This document shows positions 20,986-21,240 of a stretch of 64,000 bases of DNA, in pieces. The DNA is taken from NCBI GenBank assembly GCA_964016885.1, contig OZ024752.1:40920001-40984000 (forward strand). Direction: 5' to 3'. The notes beneath the pieces were generated by a model, which was given only the letters and a program-made list of their open reading frames with translations, had not been told where the DNA came from and did not search any database. This stretch comes from Eledone cirrhosa (Eukaryota). Made by a program: the position numbers and the translations under genes. Numbering within the stretch: position 1 is the first letter of the stretch; each line of letters opens with the position of its first letter.

Positions 20986-21230
20986 GTTAAAAGAATAGAG
21001 GTGTAACACACAAGTTATTATATATTGGTAAACGGAATAGAAAATGCTGACAAATTGTTCACAGTTGAAAAATGGTTTAATTAGGAATAAAAGAGTATTA
21101 GTGATTGTATGGGTTAGTATTCAGTTGTGGTTAACTGAATACTAACCCATACAATCACTAATACTCTTTTATTCCTAATTAAACCATTTTTCAACTGTGA
21201 ACAATTTGTCAGCATTTTCTATTCCGTTTA

Positions 21231-21240
<10 letters not shown>
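20986..21240. mobile_element. Fold-back insertion in (TA)n with 108-bp perfect arms; absent from copy A
   Basis: Arms 21019-21126 and 21133-21240, spacer gtggtt, 33-bp unpaired extension. The equivalent site in copy A (~5036-5115) is uninterrupted (TA)n. Confidence 0.85.

What the first reader, a model, noticed from the sequence alone, without database searches (positions are those of the whole stretch)
20986..21240. Perfect 108-bp-arm hairpin insertion present in only one of the two duplicated copies
Seen: copy B has a ~255-bp insert (33-bp extension, then perfect arms with a 6-nt spacer) splitting a (TA)n run, while the same site in copy A (~5036-5115) is pure (TA)n. Inference: an empty/filled site pair showing recent or polymorphic insertion into (TA)n, with the same extension-plus-inversion architecture as the HHR islands. 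Deletion from copy A by TA-TA recombination is an alternative. No HHR was seen in this insert.
Basis: partly seen in the sequence, partly recalled or inferred. Interest (0 to 1): 0.7.

Follow-up and report, generated by a model that had tools for sequence, protein, structure and literature searches.

The report
Heterozygous Penelope-like hairpin stump in (TA)n
The hairpin is a real, young, two-armed stump of a Penelope-like jumping gene that landed in a TA repeat, a layout already described, and the empty and filled sites are likely the two alleles of one locus rather than two duplicated copies.

Summary
In detail: 33-nt extension, perfect 108-bp arms, 6-nt spacer, and (TA)40 at the matching site. 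[quoted passage not shown] The tail has 3,566 exact genomic matches and the tail-less end 4,634. Tail plus inverted truncated arm in (TA)n is the published PLE layout (PMC8557442). The two 'duplicated copies' end exactly at both edges of a 200-N gap and differ by 0.84%, so they are likely two haplotypes and the insertion heterozygous; reads could not test this. One family-level lead: 28 of 85 tail-ended copies stop 229-241 nt from the 3' end, against 0 of 100 copies whose tail reads on into the ORF. This points to a short RNA with a fixed 5' end. The hammerhead-like motif lies just outside the insert and shows no peak of ends. The scan already noted fold-back PLE stumps, two-site priming and run-off at an RNA start on other DNA, this genome included. 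Ordinary; interest 0.25.

The parts
20966..20985 (.). Left part of the (TA)n target, (TA)10
   Evidence: sequence
20986..21018 (-). 33-nt PLE 'tail': the stretch between the family's two fixed end points; in tandem copies it runs on into the ORF1 ATG 28 nt further
   Evidence: 3,566 exact matches of a tail 30-mer
21019..21132 (-). Long arm: PLE 3' end, positions 34-147 from the 3' end; the last 6 nt (21127-21132) form the spacer
   Evidence: 20986-21132 is 147/147 identical to L030 and identical to 38 of the 79 sampled copies that reach this far
21133..21240 (+). Inverted tail-less arm, positions 141-34 of the same element; its last 7 nt (ATATATA) are shared by element and target
   Evidence: 4,634 exact matches of this end joined to (TA)n
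21234..21287 (.). Right part of the (TA)n target
   Evidence: sequence
5035..5115 (.). Empty site, (TA)40, in copy A (probably the other allele)
12349..12548 (.). 200-N assembly gap; copy A ends at its left edge and copy B starts at its right edge
1..12348 (+). Copy A (starts about 3,040 nt before the window)
   Evidence: with L031
12549..28531 (+). Copy B; 61 substitutions in 7,245 clean columns (0.84%) against A
20867..20896 (+). Minimal hammerhead-like motif (U3-A8 core, GAAA, ACCGGT stem III) of a different, related island that flanks the target; also at 4936

Best explanation
The insert is a 5'-truncated, two-armed copy of the 3' end of a young Neptune/Nematis-type Penelope-like retrotransposon in a (TA)n tract, likely made when both cut DNA ends primed reverse transcription on one element RNA at two fixed sites 33 nt apart, and likely heterozygous in the assembled animal. 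Shown: identity to the parent's 3' end; the parent's RT and GIY-YIG frames; two fixed end points with (TA)n at both; arms that share family variants. Inferred: the GIY-YIG nuclease cuts both strands of (TA)n. The left 3'-OH primes at the tail end (3 nt, ATA, shared with the target) and is copied for 147 nt. The right 3'-OH primes at the tail start (7 nt, ATATATA, shared) and is copied to position 141. The two cDNA ends join head to head with 0-1 nt overlap and are filled in. The 6-nt spacer is the excess of one cDNA over the other. The insert codes for nothing and lacks the hammerhead-like motif, which begins about 18 nt beyond the fold point in the parent.
For: Parent: 147/147 identity to L030, which has the same layout with a 4-kb body and a 1.3-kb tail-less inverted arm; RVT_1 and GIY-YIG pass Pfam cut-offs. 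Ends: 81 of 90 sampled tails abut at least 3 TA, 5 read on into the ORF, 4 other. 54 of 90 have an inverted tail-less arm running into TA (51 by rule, 3 by eye), 2 have a tailed inverted arm, and 34 show none in the DNA fetched. The second arm is often longer than the first (L034 52 vs 182, L042 74 vs 363, L045 191 vs ORF1 region), so it is not generally copied from the first. Arms agree at polymorphic sites (position 118: 14 AA, 33 GG, 1 GT; 223: 8 TT, 22 CC, 2 AA, 1 CT). A purified PLE protein cuts and extends both strands and starts at two sites that bound the tail (PMC11167929, parts 1-2 of 4 read). Allelism: the duplicate ends coincide with both gap edges; gaps between duplicated pairs mark false duplications (PMC9516828, passages).
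Against: No read-level test of the two alleles or of the A/B junction succeeded. In this copy the second arm is the shorter one, so fold-back synthesis or central deletion of a longer hairpin fits it as well. Arm concordance could partly reflect subfamilies active at different times. In vitro the PLE start site was not homologous to the target (PMC11167929), whereas here both ends share TA letters with it. A target-site duplication cannot be read in (TA)n. The clade rests on motifs, not on a tree. The sample of 90 is the first part of contig C1 only, and exact patterns favour young copies.
Confidence: 0.8

Rival explanations
1. Same parent, but this copy was shaped by fold-back (self-primed) synthesis, or by central deletion of a longer palindrome such as the common 237/237 form.
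For: Near-symmetric arms (147/141 here; 141/141, 171/171, 105/105, 274/275 in the sample). 476 loci carry the perfect 237/237 fold. Self-priming was proposed for PLE palindromes (PMC3846280, passages).
Against: Many copies have a second arm longer than the first, which fold-back on the first cDNA cannot give. The second arm almost always ends at the same tail-start position.
Confidence: 0.3
2. A and B are a true 15-16 kb tandem duplication, and the insert arrived in one paralogue or was lost from the other by TA-TA recombination.
For: The copies are adjacent and differ by several indels besides the insert. Palindromes between direct TA runs are deletion-prone (established knowledge).
Against: Both duplicate ends fall on the exact edges of a 200-N gap, and 0.84% divergence is in the range of allelic difference. 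The insert matches the youngest subfamily exactly, which favours gain over loss.
Confidence: 0.15
3. The hairpin is a mobile unit of its own (MITE-like or a hairpin SINE) that spreads with its junction.
For: The exact 147/141 junction stands at a second locus on C8 with unrelated flanks. One junction type reaches 476 loci.
Against: The 147/141 junction is at only 2 loci among about 3,566 tailed copies. The 237/237 fold occurs on at least two variants of position 223. Among 9 such folds (7 without indels) the only shared one-arm variant is at a CpG, in 2 copies. Ends at 229-241 also join unrelated positions or host DNA. The extension lies outside the inverted repeat.
Confidence: 0.07
4. Sequencing or assembly fold-back chimera.
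For: Perfect arms. No read spanning this locus was seen.
Against: The flanks on both sides are colinear with copy A. The second arm stops at the family's fixed tail-start position. The same end is seen in raw short reads of another individual and at 4,634 loci.
Confidence: 0.02

Closest known systems
Complex insertions of EN+ Penelope-like elements: inverted 5'-truncated copy plus one-sided 30-40 bp tail (Craig et al. 2021, PMC8557442, passages and section 11; Adineta Pen2a, PMC3846280, passages)
   Same: One-sided 33-nt tail, inverted truncated copy, partial tandems in which the pLTR runs into the ORF, bias for (TA)n, no readable target-site duplication.
   Different: Here no ORF is included and only 147 nt of pLTR remain. 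I found no account of a single sharp truncation point that is absent from read-on copies in the passages I read (searches).
Neptune/Nematis clades of C-terminal EN+ PLEs
   Same: GxKF, DKG, RT, CX4CX2C linker and CCHH GIY-YIG in that order; TA targeting as hypothesised for the Neptune linker (PMC8557442).
   Different: No tree with named references was built. A 436-aa ORF1 overlaps the RT frame by a -1 shift. The hammerhead core reads GCAA rather than GAAA in 110 of 111 instances.
Poseidon PAc of Anolis in vitro (Frangieh et al. 2024, PMC11167929, parts 1-2 of 4)
   Same: Both strands cut and extended; two RT start sites bound the tail; starts lie at the pLTR-ORF junction; ribozyme cleavage is not needed.
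   Different: PAc starts inside its ORF at sites not homologous to the target. Here the two ends lie upstream of the ATG and share 3 and 7 TA letters with the target.
L1 twin priming (recalled, not read here)
   Same: Two target ends prime one RNA and give an inversion.
   Different: In L1 the two cDNAs cover different parts of the RNA. Here both start at the 3' end and cover the same part, which gives a palindrome.
False heterotype duplication (PMC9516828, passages)
   Same: Adjacent near-identical copies separated by an assembly gap.
   Different: Half depth and linked-read discordance were not testable here.

Membership tests
EN+ Penelope-like element | RT with a GIY-YIG endonuclease in the parent element | tested here: met
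   RVT_1 E 3e-7 and GIY-YIG E 2e-7 in L030 and L028. Each copy has one frame break between them, at a different place, so one ORF is inferred.
EN+ Penelope-like element | Partial tandems forming pLTRs | tested here: met
   100 loci where the tail runs on into the ORF start
EN+ Penelope-like element | 30-40 bp tail at one end | tested here: met
   33 nt; 54 tail-less against 2 tailed inverted arms among 90 sampled
EN+ Penelope-like element | Inverted 5'-truncated copy next to the insertion | tested here: met
   window insert, L030, and 56 of 90 sampled copies
EN+ Penelope-like element | Hammerhead motif in the pLTR | tested here: inconclusive
   The parent has a minimal-hammerhead shape (U3-A8 core, 6-bp stem II, ACCGGT stem III) at positions 165-192, read by eye, but GCAA replaces GAAA in 110 of 111. 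U3-A8 is a described PLE variant (PMC4209133, passages). Activity untested; the motif is outside the insert.
EN+ Penelope-like element | Target-site duplication (optional) | not testable with these tools
   both flanks are (TA)n
Neptune/Nematis clades | CX2-5CxxC linker and CCHH motif at a C-terminal EN | tested here: met
   CDRPNCGIC linker; two Cys between GIY and YIG and two downstream His
Neptune/Nematis clades | Placement in an RT tree with named references | not tested
   no named reference set was fetched; homologue hits carry no clade names
Hydra clade | CCHH absent, DKG changed to DKT, GxKF not conserved | tested here: not met
   CCHH, DKG and GLKF are present (definition)
Naiad clade | N-terminal GIY-YIG, DKA motif | tested here: not met
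   EN is C-terminal and the motif is DKG
MITE / foldback DNA transposon | Terminal inverted repeats at both ends and a fixed unit | tested here: not met
   33 nt lie outside the repeat, fold points vary, and the arms derive from a retroelement
Animal non-LTR retrozyme | Tandem units each with a type I hammerhead | tested here: not met
   no hammerhead and no tandem unit in the insert (definition)

The most novel reading that the evidence does not exclude
About a third of this family's tailed insertions are run-off copies of a short RNA leader whose 5' end lies about 238 nt before the tail end, at an initiator-like word in the pLTR: a PLE counterpart of strong-stop DNA, primed twice and pasted as a hairpin. 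The stop is not a property of the sequence, since 0 of 100 read-on copies end there although 65 pass it, and it is not the hammerhead site about 73 nt downstream. Heterozygous sites like this one would let the reaction's products be read from allele pairs.
Probability: 0.4. Interest if true: 0.55.

Novelty: new member of a known kind. Interest (0 to 1): 0.25.

Why it matters
The insert itself matters little: it is one of thousands of PLE stumps, and the 'duplication' is likely an assembly error worth flagging to curators. The family is a useful natural data set for an open question, how PLEs build tailed, inverted insertions and what their hammerheads do (named as open in PMC8557442). Its ends support two-site priming in vivo, point to a defined short template RNA, and show no peak at the ribozyme site.

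Tried and rejected
1. Hammerhead cleavage sets the fold point. Suggested by the first, length-biased hit list, rejected on unbiased samples: 1 of 85 tail-ended and 2 of 100 read-on copies end at 160-166 (p 0.62); 4 of 100 read-on copies end at 164-168, which is not a clear peak.
2. Full-length transcripts start at position 238 and give the read-on copies. Not supported: 0 of 100 end there.
3. The 229-241 peak is only GATC microhomology or a polymerase pause. Rejected by the same control, and by ends there that join other positions or host DNA.
4. Twin identical RNA hairpins behind both end points (earlier notes on Hydra-type families). One fold of this region showed no such pair; weak test.
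5. Rfam at gathering scores: 0 matches in the window.
6. RNA evidence: no RNA holder listed; no inference drawn.
7. Allele and depth tests with public contigs and RAD reads were uninformative. The flanks are themselves high-copy repeats and the TA-adjacent part had no cover.
8. A first A/B divergence of 4.3% was inflated by misaligned satellites and replaced by 0.84%.
9. The repeat finder was swamped by microsatellites.
10. The paper on dimeric PLE hammerhead variants (recalled) was not held, so whether GCAA is a known active variant stays open.
11. The frameshift search returned only virus and general papers in the 10 listed. The O. vulgaris repeat paper gave PLE counts but no hairpin passage (passages).
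Rows: 90 of the first 100 listed tail hits were analysed (of 3,566); all 100 read-on hits were analysed; end calls of about 470 and above are 'runs on', not true ends. Supplements of PMC8557442 (clade references, hammerhead lists) were not opened and bear on the clade call.

Full report
Observation. An exact palindrome scan finds arms at 21019-21126 and 21133-21240 (108 bp, no mismatch) around GTGGTT, with a 33-nt extension at 20986-21018. Seven letters of each arm are TA, so the island between TA runs is 248 nt. The matching site at 5035-5115 is (TA)40. The filled site has (TA)10 on the left and about 27 units on the right, which fits insertion into the run without a large gain or loss. Rfam finds nothing in the window, and a minimal-hammerhead scan finds nothing inside the insert.

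The two copies. Adding 9.5 kb upstream shows that copy A runs from about -3,040 to 12348, the last base before a 200-N gap. Copy B runs from 12549, the first base after the gap, to 28531. They differ by 61 substitutions in 7,245 clean columns (0.84%), and the insert is the only long non-repetitive B-only segment. Gaps between duplicated pairs on one scaffold are a listed mark of false haplotype duplication (PMC9516828, passages). I infer two alleles of one locus, at about 80-85%. Public contigs and RAD reads could not test this.

The parent. The first 147 nt of the insert are identical to the 3' end of an element at L030 with the same layout on a larger scale: (TA)n, a tail-less inverted arm of 1.3 kb, a 4-kb body, the tail, (TA)n. 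[quoted passage not shown] That is the Neptune/Nematis pattern, not Hydra or Naiad (definitions). There are 1,350 homologues; named hits include Octopus and bivalve proteins, so the host is likely an octopod. A tail 30-mer has 3,566 exact matches, and the tail-less end joined to (TA)n has 4,634. At 100 loci the tail runs on into the element's own ORF1, whose ATG is 28 nt further; these are partial tandems.

Family anatomy. I analysed 90 of the first 100 listed tail hits (contig C1). 81 tails abut at least 3 TA, 5 read on into the ORF, 4 are other. 54 have a tail-less inverted arm running into TA, 2 a tailed one, and 34 none within the DNA fetched. Both fixed end points share letters with the target: ATA at the tail end, ATATATA at the tail start. 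The second arm is often longer than the first, so it is templated separately. Yet the arms of one insertion agree at family polymorphisms (position 118: 14 AA, 33 GG, 1 GT; 223: 8 TT, 22 CC, 2 AA, 1 CT), which fits one RNA or one source copy. Arms differ by 0.87% on average and 17 of 53 are perfect, so perfect arms alone say little about age. The window's 147 nt are identical to 38 of 79 copies that reach that far, which places it in the youngest subfamily. Its exact junction occurs at 2 loci genome-wide.

Mechanism. Most likely the nuclease cuts both strands of (TA)n, each 3'-OH primes reverse transcription at one of the two sites bounding the tail, and the two cDNAs join head to head (inferred). 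A purified PLE protein cuts and extends both strands and starts at two sites that define the tail (PMC11167929, parts 1-2 of 4). For this copy, fold-back synthesis (proposed in PMC3846280, passages) or central deletion of a longer hairpin cannot be excluded, because its second arm is the shorter.

A family-level lead. Ends pile up 229-241 nt from the 3' end: 28 of 90 first arms and 20 of 56 second arms. The perfect fold at GATC stands at 476 loci. Among the 100 read-on copies none ends there although 65 pass it, against 28 stops and 41 passes among 85 tail-ended copies (Fisher p 3e-10). A pause or microhomology fixed in the sequence would act on both classes, so a short RNA with a defined 5' end is the simplest reading. 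An initiator-like word (TCAGATC, matching the recalled consensus YYANWYY) has its A at position 238; this is weak support, as the consensus is loose. Against the simple version, copies made from full transcripts starting there should sometimes end at 238, and none does. The hammerhead-like motif (positions 165-192; U3-A8 core as in PMC4209133, passages; GCAA for GAAA in 110 of 111) shows no peak of ends, in line with cleavage being dispensable in vitro. The window's insert ends at 147/141 and is not itself in the peak.

Comparison and novelty. A one-sided 30-40 bp tail, an inverted 5'-truncated copy and TA targeting are described for PLEs (PMC8557442, passages). I found no paper on the truncation peak in four searches, which cover open-access text only. 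Earlier notes of this scan report the same layout in this and other genomes, two-site priming, and run-off at an RNA start; I reached these readings before opening them, and they are not independent evidence. Verdict: real, ordinary, a new member of a known kind; interest 0.25.

Noticed in passing
L124 (= L039), L139, L145; L030 5977-6342: The family has a 436-437 aa ORF1 that ends in a stop and overlaps the RT-EN frame by -1, with T-TTT-TTA just before it; this heptamer is the slippery site recalled from HIV-1. It is kept in 29 of 31 records held (some loci overlap), and the stop context in nearly all. Possible programmed frameshift; PMC8557442's Fig. 1 legend mentions an optional frameshifted ORF1 without my seeing for which clade.
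   Followed up: partly
window -3,040 to 28531, gap 12349-12548: Probable 15.4-kb false duplication at a scaffold gap; any other first-stage finding based on these 'two copies' should be read as allelic.
   Followed up: yes
window 4936 and 20867 (+), 5228 (-), 2766 and 18494 (-), 47970/48121, 56068/56238: Minimal hammerhead-like motifs in other TA-bounded islands. The insert's target lies between two such islands that face it; in copy B a 30-nt deletion near 21390 removes the right-hand motif.
   Followed up: partly
window 42903-43167, 47784-48218, 55968-56338, 58611-58746, 2428-2626, 5696-5901, 13415-13603: Further fold-back islands in (TA)n from other families, with one-sided extensions of 72-137 nt in several.
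   Followed up: no
L071, L120, L188, L192, L221: Junctions with extra short pieces of the element between the arms or repeated tail starts, suggesting several template jumps in one event.
   Followed up: no
   Followed up: no
window about 34100-35400, 43300-45100, 50200-52750, 56600-57200, 60560-60720, 62600-63450: A dispersed family of about 95-215 nt units in short tandem arrays on both strands, with partial matches at 8824-9055.
   Followed up: no
window 9227-9637 and 25357-25765: A 69-bp tandem repeat of 6 units with a 137-bp higher-order period.
   Followed up: no
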